From NCBI RefSeq assembly GCF_017995515.1, contig NZ_JAGOIT010000002.1, forward strand, positions 2,542 through 66,541: DNA of 64,000 bases. The letters are read 5' to 3'. Under the pieces are notes generated by a model. The model saw only the letters and a list, made by a program, of their open reading frames with translations. It did no database searches and was not told the origin of the DNA. Below are positions 17,750 through 59,092 of the stretch, in pieces. A program made the position numbers and the translations under genes. The number at the start of each line of letters is the position of its first letter. The stretch's first letter is position 1. The DNA comes from Propionivibrio sp. (GTDB lineage Bacteria; Pseudomonadota; Gammaproteobacteria; Burkholderiales; Rhodocyclaceae).

Positions 17750-18032
17750 TGGTGGGCCTCCCGTGAGTCGAACACGGCACCAACGGATTCTGGTTTGTGT
17801 GGCTTTCGCCACTCCCCGGACTATGCCTTCACCATCGCTTTCGCCTTAGGTGGGTGCCGTCTAGTCTCTACACCTTCAACAGCACTTTCGTGCTGAAGCT
17901 TGGCTCGGCGTTGCCATCCGCATCGCTGCGCTTAGGTTTCGCCGAATTTGACACCATCCCATACGCAGTTTCCAAACGTATGGCACAAATTTTATGAGTC
18001 CGCTGCTCTAACCAAGCATGAGCTAGAGGCCC
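17750..18032 (-). tRNA. ileX: tRNA-Ile2 (anticodon CAT), split by a group I intron: exon 1 18032-17994, exon 2 17789-17750
   Basis: The spliced sequence forms a full cloverleaf: acceptor GGGCCTC/GAGGCCC+ACCA, D stem GCTC/GAGC, anticodon stem GCGGA/TCCGT with loop CTCATAA, T arm CCGTG-TTCGACT-CACGG. TAGAAT -10 at 18042-18047. Ile2 rather than Met is inferred from the position after rpoD and from the Azoarcus precedent. Confidence 0.93.
17790..17993 (-). ncRNA. Group I self-splicing intron (IC3, Azoarcus tRNA-Ile type), 204 nt, no ORF
   Basis: Inserted directly 3' of the anticodon CAU. IGS GUG pairs with CAU (U.G at the 5' splice site) and the intron ends in G. P3 GGUGUC/GGCACC, P4 UCGGCG/CGCCGA, P7 GACUA/UAGUC, P9 GUGGC-GAAA-GCCAC, L2 GAAA. 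Confidence 0.95.
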
Positions 18033-54366: not shown

Positions 54367-54727
54367 CGCGCAGCCATTCAATGTCATTACTGGACGTGCC
54401 GCTCAGGAGAATGCAGTCGAAGCGACAGTCGTCGTCGGTCAGCGCGTTCGCCATCAGAAAGTGCTGGGCGGCGAGGATGATCCGGCGTTGCTTGGTTGCC
54501 GTTACGCTGGCAGCGGCGCCGCCGAAAGCGGCGTTCCGGCGCAGGCGGACCTCGACGAAGACGAGTACCTTCCCGTCACGGCAGATAAGGTCGATTTCGC
54601 CGCCGCGGCAGCGGTAGTTGCGCGCGATGATCCTGAACTTTTTCTTTTCCAGGAAACGCGTCGCCAGGTCCTCGGCCTGCCGACCGGCGCTGCCGCTCGT
54701 TTGCTGCGTGGTATCGTTGTCGCTCAT
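54347..54727 (-). CDS. yraN: YraN (UPF0102) family protein
   Basis: GRQAEDLA..FL, ARNYRCRGGEIDLI, VFVEVR, CRFD; start ATG 54727. Confidence 0.93.
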   Translation of the reverse strand: MSDNDTTQQTSGSAGRQAEDLATRFLEKKKFRIIARNYRCRGGEIDLICRDGKVLVFVEVRLRRNAAFGGAAASVTATKQRRIILAAQHFLMANALTDDDCRFDCILLSGTSSNDIEWLRDAFSLD

Positions 54728-54743
54728 TGATCCGGTGACCGAA

Positions 54744-55583
54744 ATGACAGAAGAATCCCCCGCATTATATGTAGTGCCGACGCCGCTCGGGAATCTGGCC
54801 GACATGACGCAGCGCGCCATCGACGTGCTGCGCCGCGTGCCCTGGGTGGCTGCTGAAGACACGCGTCACAGCGCGCCCCTGCTGAAGCACTACGGGGCGG
54901 GCGCACGTCTGTTGCCGGCGCACGAGCATAACGAGGAGGGCGCGGCGCAGCAGGTGATCGGCAAGCTCGCGGCGGGCGAGTCGGTCGCGCTCGTCTCGGA
55001 CGCTGGCACGCCGGCCGTTTCCGATCCCGGCGCGCGTCTCGTGGCGCGCGTGCGCGCCGCGGGCTTTCGCGTGATTCCGCTGCCGGGCGCGTGCGCAGCG
55101 GTGACGGCGCTGTCGGCGTCGGGCCTCGCCGAGCCGCACTTCCTCTTCTACGGCTTCCTCCCGGCCAAGACCAAGCAGCGCGAAGACGAATTGCGGGCGT
55201 TGTCGGGGCTGCCGTACGCGCTGCTCTTCTACGAGGCGCCGCACCGGATACTGGAGACCGTCGAGTCGATCGCCAGGGTTCTTGGCAACGACAGGACGCT
55301 CGTTCTGGCGCGCGAGTTGACCAAGCTGTTCGAGACGATTCACAGCTGTCCGTCGGGTGAGGCGCTCGCCTGGCTGCAGGCCGATGCCAACCGGCAGCGC
55401 GGCGAGTTCGTTCTGCTTGTTTCGGGTGTCGTCGATTCCGGGAATTCCGGGGAAGGCGAACGCGTGCTGAAGTTGCTCCTCGACGACGGTATCTCGGTCA
55501 AGCAGGCCGTCCGTCTGGCGCACGCAATTACCGGTGCGCCGAAGAACGCGATGTACGATCTGGCGCTGAGTCTCAAGGAGTAA
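54744..55583 (+). CDS. rsmI: 16S rRNA C1402 2'-O-methyltransferase
   Basis: LYVVPTPLGNLAD, AEDTR, VSDAGTPAVSDPG, FYEAPHR, ARELTKLFE. Confidence 0.97.
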   Translation: MTEESPALYVVPTPLGNLADMTQRAIDVLRRVPWVAAEDTRHSAPLLKHYGAGARLLPAHEHNEEGAAQQVIGKLAAGESVALVSDAGTPAVSDPGARLVARVRAAGFRVIPLPGACAAVTALSASGLAEPHFLFYGFLPAKTKQREDELRALSGLPYALLFYEAPHRILETVESIARVLGNDRTLVLARELTKLFETIHSCPSGEALAWLQADANRQRGEFVLLVSGVVDSGNSGEGERVLKLLLDDGISVKQAVRLAHAITGAPKNAMYDLALSLKE

Positions 55584-55665: not shown

Positions 55666-56727
55666 ATGCCAAACAGCCAAACCGCATCCCTCGCTCGAAT
55701 CACCCTGACGCGTCCCGATGACTGGCACCTGCACCTGCGCGACGGTGACGCGCTCAGGTCCGTGCTGCCGCACAGCGCGGCGCAGTTCGCCCGGGCCATC
55801 GTCATGCCCAATCTGCGCCCGCCGGTGACGACCGTGGCCGCGGCCGGCGAGTATCGCCAGCGCATTCTCGCCGCGCTCCCCGAAGGTGCAAGTTTCGAGC
55901 CGCTGATGACGCTCTACCTGACCGACAACACGCCGGCCGACGAGATCCGGCGCGCCGTCGACAGCGGCTTCGTCAAGGCGGTCAAGCTCTATCCGGCCGG
56001 GGCGACGACCAACTCCGACGCGGGCGTAACCGATCTTGCCAAGTGTGACGCGGCGCTCGCCGAGATGGAAAAGGCGGGCATGCCGCTGCTGGTGCACGGC
56101 GAAGTCACCGATCCGGCGGTCGACATCTTCGATCGCGAGAACGTCTTCATCGAGACGGTGCTGCAGCCCCTGCTGGTCCGGCGACCCGGGCTGCGCGTCG
56201 TGTTCGAGCACATCACGACGGCCGATGCCGCAGAGTTCGTTGCGACGGCTGGCGACAACGTTGCGGCGACGATCACCGCGCATCATCTGCTCTACAACCG
56301 CAATGCCCTGTTTACGGGTGGTGTTCGTCCGCACTATTACTGCCTGCCGGTGTTGAAGCGCGAGAAGCACCGCGCCGCCCTGGTCGGCGCGGCGACATCG
56401 GGCAGCAAGAAATTCTTCCTCGGTACCGATTCGGCGCCGCATGCGCGCCACACCAAGGAGGCGACCTGCGGTTGTGCCGGTTGCTACACGGCACACGCGG
56501 CGCTGGAACTTTACGCCGAGGCGTTCGAGGTGGCCGATGCGCTCGACCGGCTGGAGGCCTTTGCCAGCTTCAACGGCCCGGACTTCTATCGGCTCCCGCG
56601 CAATTCGACGCGCGTGACGCTGGAGAAAACGCCGTGGCAGGTGCCCGAGGCGTTTGAATTCGCCGGCGGCGATGCGCTGGTGCCCCTGCGCGCAGGTGAG
56701 TCGCTCGCCTGGCGCCTTGTTGGCTAG
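55666..56727 (+). CDS. pyrC: Dihydroorotase (type II)
   Basis: [47 protein letters not shown]. Confidence 0.98.
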
Positions 56728-56745: not shown

Positions 56746-57231
56746 GTGATTCGACTCAGCTTTATTCCGCGGTGGATCGTGTTGGCGCTGCTGCCGCTCC
56801 TGGCCGCGTGCACCGACCTTCGCGCAACCTTCGAAATCAAGGGCAGCGCGCATGCACTGAGCCTGATCCGGGTAACCGGGATGTTTTGGGAGAAGACGGC
56901 GGAGTACTCGATCGTCGCCGCCCGCATGCCGGACTGCATGCGCCGCCACGCGCTCGGCAAGGCGGCGCTCAAGGCCCGGGTCGAGGTCTATTCGCCCGGC
57001 AACGATGCCTGGATTCTCAGGCAGGGCAAGCAGATGTACGTGGTCGAGACGCGCACTTGCGAAGGCTTTGCCAAGCTGGATAAGGAACCCGACAGCGGAC
57101 TCGGCGTGCCGATGGGTGCCTTCGAGATGCGCGGCAGCGAGCTTGTTTTCACGCCGGCGGTCAAGGCAGAGCCACCGCCCGCGGCGGCGCCCGCGCCGGG
57201 CGAACCAGCGACTGACGCCACGCAGAGCTGA
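56746..57231 (+). CDS. Hypothetical lipoprotein
   Basis: GGAGG RBS, GTG start, lipobox LAAC, Cys pair (PDC...RTCEG), Pro/Ala-rich tail. Confidence 0.7.
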   Translation: MIRLSFIPRWIVLALLPLLAACTDLRATFEIKGSAHALSLIRVTGMFWEKTAEYSIVAARMPDCMRRHALGKAALKARVEVYSPGNDAWILRQGKQMYVVETRTCEGFAKLDKEPDSGLGVPMGAFEMRGSELVFTPAVKAEPPPAAAPAPGEPATDATQS

Positions 57232-57261
57232 TTTGTCCGCCGGACCGCGTATAATCGCGGC

Positions 57262-57666
57262 GGGAAGTCGGCCAGGCAACCGCTGGGGGAGAGGCGAAAG
57301 TCTCGAACCGGGAGGAAAGTCCGGGCTTCACAGAGCAAGATGCCGGCTAACGGCCGGGCACCGCAAGGTGACGGAAAGTGCAACAGAGAATAGACCGCCT
57401 AAGTCCGGGGTAGCCCGGGCCGGCAAGGGTGAAACGGCGCCCCGGCTATAGCCGGGGCGGTCGGGCGCAAGCCCGGCCGAGGTAAGAGCTCACCGCGGAC
57501 GTGGTAACACGGACGGCACGGCAAACCCCATCTGAAGCAAGACCAAATAGGGAAGCGCATGGCGTGGCTCGCGTTGCTTCCGGGTAGGTTGCTTGAGCGC
57601 ACTGGCAACAGTGCGCCTAGAGGAATGGTTGCCCACGACAGAACCCGGCTTATCGGCCGACTTCCC
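57262..57666 (+). ncRNA. rnpB: RNase P RNA (bacterial type A)
   Basis: GAGGAAAGTCCGGGC (57312-57326) and AGAACCCGGCTTAT (57640-57653) conserved regions; P1 GGGAAGTCGGCC/GGCCGACTTCCC; TATAAT at 57250-57255. Confidence 0.97.
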
Positions 57667-57742
57667 ACTGCTCTCTGCCGCCGCGTTTGACAGAGCGTCT
57701 GGTGGCGTCAATACTGGTTTTCACCCTGCGCAGCGCACCTTC

Positions 57743-59092
57743 ATGGACAACACGGATCGTCCCCGGCTCAATGTCATCGCTGGCCCCATTCTGGGCGAGT
57801 TTCTTCTCGGCTACACGGTGGTCATCGTCGGTCTGTGGCTGGCGTCGCACACCTCCGACGGCGCGGCGGGCAGTCTCGGTCTCGCCAATCAGGTGCTTGA
57901 AACACTGTTCGTGCTCTATCGCGTGCTGGCGATCGGCATGGGCGTCGTCATTACCCAGCTGCTCGGCGGGCAACAAACCGAAAGCGTGCGCAGAACGGCG
58001 CTGGCCGGTCTCGGCGCGGCGACCTGGGCGGGCGTGTTCGTGTTCGGCTGGCTGGTGTTCGGCAACGATCTGATCCTCGACGTGCTGAACGCGCCGGCGG
58101 AAATCCTGCCGATGGCCGCGCCTTACCTGCAATTGCTGGCACCCGCTGCGCTACTTGAAGGCTACAACCTGATGATGGCGGCGATCCTGCGCGCCCACCT
58201 GCACGTCAAGGATTCCCTGCGCGTGATGATCGCCATGCATTGCAGCCACTTCGTGCTGGCCGTGCCGCTGATGCTCGGTGTGGGGCCGTGGGATGGGTTT
58301 GGCCTCAACGGATTTGCCATCGCGTTGCTGTCCAGCCGCGCAATTGGCCTGGTTCTGCACCTGCGCCTGTGGCGCCGGCGCATGGCGCTGGTGCCCGCGC
58401 TGTCCGACTGGTGGGCGTTCTGCCCTCGCATCCTGGCGCCGGTCCTGCGCATCGGCGTGCCGGGGGCGACGACCGAACTCGGCTACCGGGCAGCGTTCAT
58501 GGTGTCGCTGGCGGCGACCGCGCGACTCGGCGTCGTGGCGCTGGCGACGCATTCCTATGTCCTGCAGTTGCTGCGCTACGTCTTCCTGATCAGCCTGTCG
58601 ATCGGCTGGGCGTGCGAGATCATCGTCGGACGCCTGATCGGCGCCGGCCAGTTCAGTCAGGCGCGTGCCCTGGTGATCAAGGGAGTACGCAATGGCCTGG
58701 TCGCATCGGGCTCGATCGCCGTGGTCGCGGCCTTCGCCGCGCCTTGGCTGATGCGCATTTTCACCAAGGATCCGGCGGTGATCGAGGCGGCGCAGGTTCT
58801 CCTCTGGATCGCGGTGGTCCTCGAGTGCGGGCGCGTCTTCAATCTGATCGTCACGGGCGCCTTGCGCGCGACGGGCGATGCGATTTATCCCGTCGTTGCC
58901 AGCGTCGGTTCGTTCGCGCTGGTGCTCGGTGTCGGCTCCTATTTTCTCGGGCACGCCATCGGACTACCCGGGATTTTCATCGCCTACGCCGCCGACGAGT
59001 GGGTGCGTGGCCTGCTGATGTTCGTTCGCTGGCGCTGGCACGGCTGGGTTCCGCATGCGCGCAACGCGCAGCGGCGCGTGCGGCGCGGGTGA
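57743..59092 (+). CDS. MATE-family efflux transporter
   Basis: About 12 TM segments; IAGPILGEFLLG, VITQLLGG, LRIGVPG, IVGRLIGAG, GALRATGD; start ATG 57743. Confidence 0.9.
   Translation: MDNTDRPRLNVIAGPILGEFLLGYTVVIVGLWLASHTSDGAAGSLGLANQVLETLFVLYRVLAIGMGVVITQLLGGQQTESVRRTALAGLGAATWAGVFVFGWLVFGNDLILDVLNAPAEILPMAAPYLQLLAPAALLEGYNLMMAAILRAHLHVKDSLRVMIAMHCSHFVLAVPLMLGVGPWDGFGLNGFAIALLSSRAIGLVLHLRLWRRRMALVPALSDWWAFCPRILAPVLRIGVPGATTELGYRAAFMVSLAATARLGVVALATHSYVLQLLRYVFLISLSIGWACEIIVGRLIGAGQFSQARALVIKGVRNGLVASGSIAVVAAFAAPWLMRIFTKDPAVIEAAQVLLWIAVVLECGRVFNLIVTGALRATGDAIYPVVASVGSFALVLGVGSYFLGHAIGLPGIFIAYAADEWVRGLLMFVRWRWHGWVPHARNAQRRVRRG

What the first reader, a model, noticed from the sequence alone, without database searches (positions are those of the whole stretch)
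57438..57478. RNase P RNA carries a 41-nt double-hairpin insertion in helix P13
Seen: between GUGAAACGG and GAG-GUAAGAG-CUCACCG lie a perfect 22-bp palindrome CGCCCCGGCTATAGCCGGGGCG (57438-57459) and a GCAA-tetraloop hairpin GTCGGGC-GCAA-GCCCGGC (57460-57477). Known: in type A RNase P RNAs this segment is a continuous P13 (CGGUGNG-GUAAGAG-CNCACCG) in the specificity domain. The insert replaces the single U that would pair with A57492. Inference: a novel peripheral element next to the tRNA T-loop recognition module. The palindrome loosely resembles IS200/IS605 or REP-type hairpins, so it may be a domesticated insertion. Whether it relates to processing of the intron-containing pre-tRNA is speculative.
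Basis: partly seen in the sequence, partly recalled or inferred. Interest (0 to 1): 0.65.

Follow-up and report, generated by a model that had tools for sequence, protein, structure and literature searches.

The report
Common two-hairpin branch in RNase P RNA
The RNase P ribozyme gene of this Propionivibrio-type bacterium does carry 40 extra bases that form two small hairpins branching from helix P13, but the same branch occurs in about a fifth of related genomes and in other phyla, so it is an ordinary lineage-variable decoration and not a new or mobile element.

Summary
rnpB (RF00010, 276.7 bits, window 57264-57668, + strand) has 40 extra nt inside P13, and they fold into two hairpins.

Three details need correction:
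- The insert is 40 nt, not 41.
- It does not replace a U. C57438 keeps that position opposite A57492, as it does in congeners without the insert.
- Comparative data favour two equal 20-nt hairpins (57439-57458 with a UAUA loop; 57459-57478 with a GCAA loop). This makes P13 a four-way junction.

The element is not new and does not look mobile:
- A strict pattern finds a two-hairpin P13 insert in 57 of 301 Rhodocyclaceae genomes (27 of 89 genera) and in 33 of 401 genomes of the order.
- It also finds at least 120 species genomes in the public collection, including Thauera, Azoarcus, Dechloromonas, Chromobacterium, Nitrospirota, Acidobacteriota and Planctomycetota.
- Both stems covary strongly (14 of 16 pairs show compensatory changes) and contain many G-U pairs, so selection acts on the sense-strand RNA.
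- The window's genome has no second copy of the sequence.
- Inserted and uninserted congeners interleave on the rnpB tree, and three congeners carry a tandemly duplicated four-hairpin version. The module is therefore dispensable and evolves quickly.
- It shows no association with the tRNA-Ile group I intron.

Interest is low.

The parts
57264..57668 (+). rnpB, bacterial class A RNase P RNA (405 nt)
   Evidence: cmscan RF00010, 276.7 bits, E 2.7e-89, model 1-367, not truncated; the same hit appears in the whole-genome search.
57250..57255 (+). TATAAT hexamer 8 nt upstream of the RNA 5' end; possible -10 box
   Evidence: Read directly from the sequence. The consensus scan did not call it because no good -35 box is present, so this is inference only.
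57435..57438 (+). P13 outer stem, 5' strand (CGGC). C57438 lies opposite A57492 as a C.A mismatch.
   Evidence: Alignment A1 columns 8-11 pair with columns 65-68. Columns 9 and 10 are invariant G-C. Column 11-65 is U-A in 16 relatives and C.A in 10. Uninserted congeners have the same CGGC...ACCG.
57439..57458 (+). Inserted hairpin 1: GCCCCGGC-UAUA-GCCGGGGC (8 bp, non-GNRA tetraloop)
   Evidence: Helix 2: 96.6% of cells paired and 6 of 8 pairs show compensatory changes. The MFE fold agrees. The UAUA loop is shared only with two close relatives (L051, L197); most relatives have GNRA here.
57459..57478 (+). Inserted hairpin 2: GGUCGGGC-GCAA-GCCCGGCC (8 bp including one U.G pair; GNRA tetraloop)
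   Evidence: Helix 3: 96.2% of cells paired and 8 of 8 pairs show compensatory changes. The loop is GNRA in 25 of 26 aligned relatives and in 85 of 129 two-hairpin inserts overall.
57479..57491 (+). P13 inner stem GAG/CUC with the conserved L13 loop GUAAGAG (57482-57488)
   Evidence: Helix 4 (column 53-63 is A-U in 16 relatives and G-C in 9). The loop is invariant across A1.
57492..57495 (+). P13 outer stem, 3' strand (ACCG)

Best explanation
The 40 nt are a lineage-variable structural expansion of helix P13 of RNase P RNA. Two self-contained 8-bp tetraloop hairpins are inserted into the 5' strand between the fourth and fifth base pairs of P13. This turns P13 into a perfectly paired four-way junction while leaving the outer stem, the inner stem and the conserved L13 loop (GUAAGAG) intact.

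Shown:
- The position of the insert.
- The two helices, supported by covariation.
- Selection on the sense-strand RNA.
- Wide but patchy distribution, with the insert present and absent among close relatives.
- Growth by tandem duplication in some congeners.
- A single copy in the window's genome.

Inferred:
- The insert stays in the mature RNA.
- The outer and inner P13 stems keep stacking on each other, so L13 and P14 hold their normal tertiary contacts. The two new hairpins stack on each other and project from the outer helical layer formed by P13/P14 and P18.
- At most the module acts as a small, dispensable folding or stability brace, possibly through docking of the well-conserved GNRA loop of hairpin 2. 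It is not needed for catalysis or substrate choice, because sister species lack it.
For: - Position and register.
- Covariation: on 26 relatives, 95.3% of cells are paired against 29-48% when partners are slid. 14 of the 16 insert stem pairs show changes on both sides. None of 500 shuffles reached the observed values.
- Strand: G-U and U-G pairs are frequent (for example column 34-49 is U-G in 12 relatives and column 13-30 is G-U in 8). These would be A.C mismatches on the other strand, so the structure is selected in the rnpB sense RNA.
- Architecture: 129 of 141 distinct inserts fold as two hairpins. Loop 2 is GNRA in 85 of 129 and loop 1 in 57 of 129.
- Dispensability and turnover: on an rnpB tree built without the insert columns, inserted and uninserted congeners interleave. 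Well-supported branches force at least 4 changes and parsimony gives 6-7.
- Growth: three congeners have inserts of about 80 nt with four hairpins, and the two halves are 27-32 of 40 identical.
- Placement: P13/P14 and P18 form the smaller, peripheral helical layer of type A RNAs (PMC8457005), so a side branch there is sterically plausible.
Against:
- No three-dimensional model was made, so the stacking arrangement and any GNRA docking partner are inference.
- In this window loop 1 is UAUA, not GNRA. Any loop-1 contact present in relatives would be lost or different here.
- Frequent loss among congeners fits a nearly neutral passenger as well as it fits a stabilising brace.
- The rnpB tree is short (354 columns) and poorly resolved, and recombination could mimic repeated loss.
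Confidence: 0.8

Rival explanations
1. The insert is a neutral passenger. It arose by local duplication or slippage and is tolerated because it folds on itself. The covariation only reflects selection against disrupting P13, and the insert has no positive function.
For: Repeated presence and absence among rnpB genes that are about 94% identical. Size changes by tandem duplication. Loop 1 is not conserved: UAUA here, GNRA in only 57 of 129 inserts.
Against: Similar two-hairpin architecture recurs in many families and phyla with unrelated sequences. Loop 2 is GNRA in 25 of 26 close relatives. This is more regular than pure tolerance would predict, although GNRA loops are also simply the most stable hairpin caps.
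Confidence: 0.35
2. The insert is a domesticated REP-type or IS200/IS605-type palindromic mobile element that landed in rnpB.
For: Hairpin 1 plus flanking bases is a perfect 22-nt palindrome. The genome encodes two Y1-transposase-family (PF01797) proteins, on contigs C15 and C60. Repeat-derived hairpins do occur in rnpB of CPR bacteria (earlier scan notes).
Against: There is no second copy in the 3.56-Mb assembly at up to 3 mismatches or by blastn-short. Homologous inserts in relatives differ in sequence but keep their pairing through G-U-containing compensatory changes, which indicates selection on the RNA and not on DNA. The Y1 transposase genes are on other contigs. The assembly has 194 contigs, so collapsed repeats could be missed.
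Confidence: 0.04
3. The insert is an intervening sequence that is cut out after transcription, as with RNase III-excised 23S rRNA IVSs. That would leave a fragmented RNase P RNA.
For: Excised or suspected excised hairpin inserts have been proposed for CPR rnpB (earlier scan notes; unchecked).
Against: The stems are only 8 bp each, far shorter than the roughly two helical turns that RNase III typically needs (established knowledge). The GNRA caps and tight junction look like a built-in structural element. No read data were available.
Confidence: 0.03
4. The insert adapts RNase P to the intron-containing pre-tRNA-Ile(CAU) encoded in the same window.
For: Both features occur in this genome (for the intron at window 17750-18032).
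Against: Within the genus, group I intron hits occur in 5 of 14 genomes with the insert and 3 of 16 without it (Fisher p = 0.42; p = 1.0 if two weak hits are dropped). Both discordant classes exist. The insert also occurs in many lineages where the intron was not examined. The genomes are incomplete MAGs, so absences are soft.
Confidence: 0.02

Closest known systems
Bacterial class A RNase P RNA (Rfam RF00010; E. coli M1 RNA, Thermotoga maritima and Thermus thermophilus P RNAs)
   Same: Full-length match with all core helices, including P13 with the L13 loop GUAAGAG and P14 with GGUAACA. P13/P14 belong to the peripheral helical layer (PMC8457005).
   Different: In the model RNAs P13 is a continuous hairpin of about 7 bp. 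Here two 20-nt hairpins branch from its 5' strand and make a four-way junction. cmscan treats them as a 40-nt insertion.
Two-hairpin P13 inserts of other Rhodocyclaceae and Chromobacteriaceae rnpB genes (for example Thauera linaloolentis, T. aminoaromatica, Azoarcus, Dechloromonas, Sterolibacterium, Chromobacterium piscinae, Iodobacter, Vogesella)
   Same: Same insertion site, the same two-hairpin layout and mostly GNRA caps. The Propionivibrio copies are clearly homologous in sequence.
   Different: Loop 1 is UAUA here and in two close relatives only. Stem sequences differ between genera. I found no paper in the searchable library that describes or names this variant.
Lineage-specific peripheral helices and helix extensions of bacterial RNase P RNA (variable P3, P12 and P19; extra helices such as P16.1; large extensions in CPR bacteria, Lui et al. 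2021, PMC8172020)
   Same: Extra, covariation-supported helices at the periphery, patchy in phylogeny, that leave the conserved core untouched (for CPR, Table 3 of PMC2858038, for the list of optional helices).
   Different: Those cases mostly lengthen a helix tip or add a helix at a junction. Here a branch is placed in the middle of a short helix. From memory, and not verified here, Butler and Fuerst (2004, IJSEM) reported P13 inserts in planctomycete RNase P RNAs. That would be the nearest published precedent.
Repeat-derived hairpins inside rnpB
   Same: A palindromic insert sits inside a peripheral helix of rnpB.
   Different: Those elements are multi-copy in the host genome. This sequence is single-copy and evolves under RNA pairing constraints.

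Membership tests
Bacterial RNase P RNA class A (RF00010) | Covariance-model score above the curated gathering threshold over the full model | tested here: met
   276.7 bits against a gathering score of 100; model positions 1-367 of 367; not truncated.
Bacterial RNase P RNA class A (RF00010) | Type A specificity-domain signature: P13 and P14 present with their conserved loops, and not the type B P10.1 | tested here: met
   GUAAGAG (57482-57488) and GGUAACA follow in the expected order and pair as in the model.
Bacterial RNase P RNA class A (RF00010) | Catalyses 5' maturation of pre-tRNA | not testable with these tools
   Needs a biochemical assay.
Lineage-variable structural expansion of a stable RNA | Extra helices supported by compensatory base changes across relatives | tested here: met
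   14 of 16 insert pairs show changes on both sides; 95.3% of cells paired; 0 of 500 shuffles reached the observed values; slid controls gave 29-48%.
Lineage-variable structural expansion of a stable RNA | Located in a peripheral element with the conserved core and loop left intact; present or absent among close relatives | tested here: met
   The L13 loop and both P13 sub-stems are conserved. 14 of 30 congeners have the insert and 16 lack it, and the two states interleave on the tree.
Lineage-variable structural expansion of a stable RNA | Retained in the mature RNA | not testable with these tools
REP / IS200-IS605-type palindromic elements | Many dispersed copies of the palindrome in the same genome, mostly intergenic | tested here: not met
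   Only the rnpB copy was found at up to 3 mismatches. blastn-short gave no other hit better than a 14-nt exact match, E >= 0.3.
REP / IS200-IS605-type palindromic elements | A cognate Y1 (HUH) transposase or RAYT encoded in the genome | tested here: inconclusive
   Two PF01797 hits on contigs C15 and C60. They are not linked to rnpB and no cognate hairpins were identified.
Excised intervening sequence (rRNA IVS type) | A long, continuous double-stranded stem suitable for RNase III | tested here: not met
   Two separate 8-bp stems.
Excised intervening sequence (rRNA IVS type) | Absent from the mature RNA | not testable with these tools

The most novel reading that the evidence does not exclude
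The two-hairpin branch of P13 may be an undescribed, recurrent structural module of type A RNase P RNAs. On this reading it is a perfectly paired four-way junction whose two stacked hairpins form a roughly 17-bp rod. The well-conserved GNRA loop of hairpin 2 would dock on a neighbouring S-domain helix, bracing the outer P13/P14 layer. The module would arise by hairpin duplication, expand by tandem duplication, and have been gained or lost many times across at least ten phyla. That would make it a natural system for studying how a ribozyme acquires and discards expansion segments.
Probability: 0.25. Interest if true: 0.4.

Novelty: new member of a known kind. Interest (0 to 1): 0.2.

Why it matters
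This finding matters little on its own. It is one more rnpB gene with a peripheral decoration typical of its family, and it needs no special annotation beyond 'RNase P RNA'.

Three modest points follow:
- Covariance-model annotation treats the branch as an unstructured insertion. It is in fact a well-supported pair of helices found in roughly a fifth of Rhodocyclaceae genomes and in other phyla, so structure diagrams and alignments of type A RNAs could include it as an optional element.
- The mix of uninserted, two-hairpin and duplicated four-hairpin forms within one genus gives a clean small example of expansion-segment turnover in a ribozyme.
- The analysis removes a suspected case of a mobile element inside rnpB.

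Tried and rejected
- Mobile or REP origin: rejected after a pattern search of the window's genome and blastn-short found no other copy. The PF01797 hits are unlinked.
That pair holds in 2 of 26 relatives, against 16 of 26 U-A pairs for the alternative register.
- Link to the tRNA-Ile group I intron: no association found.
- Literature: six full-text searches and several 'find' look-ups found no description of a branched P13. Haas and Brown 1998 is not held under its DOI. A remembered report of P13 inserts in planctomycetes could not be verified.
- Earlier scan notes concern CPR rnpB inserts and the intron in this window. None describes this element.
- Excision by RNase III: considered unlikely because the stems are short; not testable here.
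- Search for a GNRA receptor by covariation, and 3D modelling: not attempted because no suitable tool was available and the signal would be subtle.

Full report
**What is there.** Window 57264-57668 (+) is a complete class A RNase P RNA (RF00010, 276.7 bits, E 2.7e-89, model positions 1-367). In the specificity domain, cmscan places 51 nt where the model has 11, between GGUGAAACGGCG and CACCG, which is inside helix P13. The sequence reads GGUGAAA-CGGC-[GCCCCGGC UAUA GCCGGGGC]-[GGUCGGGC GCAA GCCCGGCC]-GAG-GUAAGAG-CUC-ACCG. The segment folds more stably than all 200 shuffles. Folded from the closing CGG/CCG pairs, its minimum-energy structure is a four-way junction with two 8-bp hairpins.

**Size and register.** I extracted rnpB from 60 relatives. 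Sixteen congeners have an uninterrupted P13, GGTGAAACGG-CGAG-GTAAGAG-CTCACCG, with 62 nt between two fixed anchors against 102 nt in the window. The insert is therefore 40 nt. The uninserted genes already carry C opposite A at the fourth P13 pair, so the insert did not replace a U.

I aligned 26 relatives whose P13 segment has the same length (68 nt, alignment A1) and compared two registers:
- Register '4 outer pairs, 8-bp hairpin, 8-bp hairpin, 3 inner pairs': 95.3% of cells paired. The fourth outer pair is U-A in 16 sequences and C.A in 10.

The best description is two 20-nt hairpins at 57439-57458 and 57459-57478. The two registers differ only by branch migration of one pair at the junction.

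**Evidence for a selected RNA structure.** In one search, 14 of the 16 insert stem pairs show compensatory double changes. Each of the five summary measures exceeds all 500 shuffles, and sliding the 3' partners by 1-3 columns drops pairing to 29-48%. G-U and U-G pairs are common (for example 12 U-G at columns 34-49). These would be A.C mismatches on the complementary strand, so the constraint acts on the rnpB sense RNA and not on DNA. The L13 loop GUAAGAG and both P13 sub-stems are conserved.

**How common it is.** It is.
- Matching contig lengths between and the titled records places the window's GTDB genus at Propionivibrio (for example Candidatus Propionivibrio dominans). One record is labelled Accumulibacter by NCBI.
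- Within the genus, 14 of 30 scorable rnpB genes carry a P13 insert at the same site. Eight are close homologues of the window's 40-nt (or 36-nt) insert. Three have a two-hairpin insert of different sequence. Three have a four-hairpin insert of about 80 nt.
- The strict exact pattern GGTGAAANGG-N20-50-GGTAAGAGCNCACC gives a lower bound. It hits 57 of 301 genomes and 27 of 89 genera of the family, and 33 of 401 genomes and 20 of 168 genera of the order.
Hits include Thauera linaloolentis, T. aminoaromatica, Azoarcus, Aromatoleum, Azonexus, Dechloromonas, Sterolibacterium, Sulfuritalea, Rugosibacter, Chromobacterium piscinae, Iodobacter, Vogesella, Chitiniphilus, Jeongeupia and Deefgea. Outside the Betaproteobacteria they include Nitrospirota, Thermodesulfovibrionales, Acidobacteriota, Planctomycetota/Brocadiia, Gemmatimonadales, Cytophagales, Elusimicrobiota, WOR-3 and Patescibacteria.
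- Nearly all of these hits have the GAGGAAAGUCC rnpB signature upstream.
- Of 141 distinct inserts, 129 fold as two hairpins when the P13 stems are constrained. Loop 2 is GNRA in 85 of 129 and loop 1 in 57 of 129. In the 26-sequence alignment, loop 2 is GNRA in 25. The window's UAUA in loop 1 is shared only with two close relatives.

**Origin and turnover.**
- The palindrome has no other copy in the window's 3.56-Mb assembly at up to 3 mismatches. blastn-short with the 41-nt finding interval (57438-57478, which contains the insert), either hairpin or the whole P13 gives nothing better than 14-nt exact matches at E >= 0.3.
- The genome does encode two Y1-transposase-family proteins on other contigs. 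Without dispersed copies, a REP or IS200-type origin has no support.
- The three four-hairpin congeners are tandem duplications of the 40-nt unit. Their halves are 27, 28 and 32 of 40 identical, and in G035 the first and third hairpins are identical. The window's own two hairpins are 12 of 20 identical, which is compatible with an older hairpin duplication but does not prove one.
- On an rnpB tree built with the insert columns removed (354 columns), inserted and uninserted species interleave. A strongly supported 12-member clade (100/99) contains 5 inserted and 7 uninserted genes. Well-supported branches force at least 4 state changes and parsimony gives 6-7.
- The inserted copies inside and outside that clade are homologous. 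The simplest reading is one gain followed by several precise losses, or exchange by recombination. Either way the module is dispensable on a short time scale. The tree is short and partly unresolved, so the counts are approximate.

**How it probably works.** P13/P14 and P18 form the smaller, peripheral helical layer that stabilises the extended type A fold through tertiary contacts (PMC8457005). From established knowledge (the models of Massire et al. 1998 and the crystal structures of the T. thermophilus S-domain and T. maritima RNA), L13 docks on P12 and L14 on P8. The insert leaves L13, the inner stem and the outer stem intact, and the junction has no unpaired nucleotides.

I infer that the two P13 sub-stems remain coaxial, which preserves the native contacts. 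The two new hairpins would stack on each other as a side rod pointing away from the core. The enrichment of GNRA in loop 2 suggests an extra A-minor-type contact or simply a stable cap. I put about 0.8 on 'retained, self-folding, dispensable peripheral expansion of P13'. Within that, I split roughly evenly between a mild stabilising brace and a neutral passenger.

**Link to the intron-containing tRNA.** Across the genus, intron hits occur in 5 of 14 genomes with the insert and 3 of 16 without it (Fisher p = 0.42; p = 1.0 without two weak hits). There is no sign of a functional link.

**Context.** Upstream lie rsmI (54618-55583), an amidohydrolase (55666-56727) and a 161-aa ORF with no Pfam hit (56746-57231). 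Downstream lies a MATE-family transporter (within 57593-59092). A TATAAT hexamer at 57250-57255 sits 8 nt before the RNA 5' end, but the scan did not call it as a promoter. The scan found no intrinsic terminator after rnpB.

**Comparison with what is known, and novelty.** The gene is an ordinary member of RF00010. Optional peripheral helices and helix extensions are a familiar feature of RNase P RNA evolution (PMC2858038 Table 3; PMC8172020). I found no paper in the searchable library that describes a branched P13. I recall, but could not verify, a report of P13 inserts in planctomycetes (Butler and Fuerst 2004). Because the same insert is present in many long-available genomes of cultured bacteria, this window adds a further member and not a new kind. 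I rate it 'new member of a known kind', interest 0.2. The most novel reading still open is that the two-hairpin P13 junction is an under-described, recurrent S-domain module with a GNRA-mediated contact and unusually fast gain, loss and duplication dynamics. I give that probability about 0.25 and interest about 0.4 if true.

Noticed in passing
L032 (G006), L043 (G022), L050 (G035): P13 region of rnpB: Three congeners carry P13 inserts of about 80 nt with four hairpins. These are tandem duplications of the 40-nt two-hairpin unit: the halves are 27-32 of 40 identical, and in G035 hairpins 1 and 3 are identical.
   Followed up: partly
G028:C74:2591-2832 (-) and G021:C113:4372-4552 (-): Weak Intron_gpI (RF00028) hits (26.7 and 27.4 bits, below the gathering score of 50) lie on the opposite strand 0.2-0.8 kb downstream of rnpB. 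Both are in congeners that carry the different-sequence two-hairpin P13 insert. They may be chance hits or another structured RNA.
   Followed up: no
L014 (G011), L040 (G015), L022 (G042): P12 region of rnpB: P12 is greatly lengthened, by tens of nucleotides with several GNRA-capped sub-hairpins, in some relatives. This contributes to rnpB lengths of 417-514 nt within one genus and order.
   Followed up: no
window 57438 and 57492: The fourth P13 pair is a C.A mismatch in this lineage, in both inserted and uninserted genes (10 of 26 aligned relatives). Most other relatives have U-A. The insertion site is immediately 3' of this mismatch.
   Followed up: partly
window 56988-57383 (-), 57005-57451 (+), 57593-57743 (+): Long mechanical ORFs overlap rnpB and would be false protein calls. 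The listed 499-aa MATE ORF starts inside rnpB, so its true start must lie downstream, for example at the ATG at 57744.
   Followed up: no
window 57687-57715 (+): A sigma-70-like promoter match (TTGACA-17-AATACT, 10 of 12) lies between rnpB and the MATE transporter gene. No intrinsic terminator was detected after rnpB.
   Followed up: no
G000 contigs C15:675-1010 (-) and C60:15051-15302 (+): Two Y1-transposase-family (PF01797) matches occur in the window's genome. Any associated IS200/IS605 or REP hairpins were not examined.
   Followed up: no
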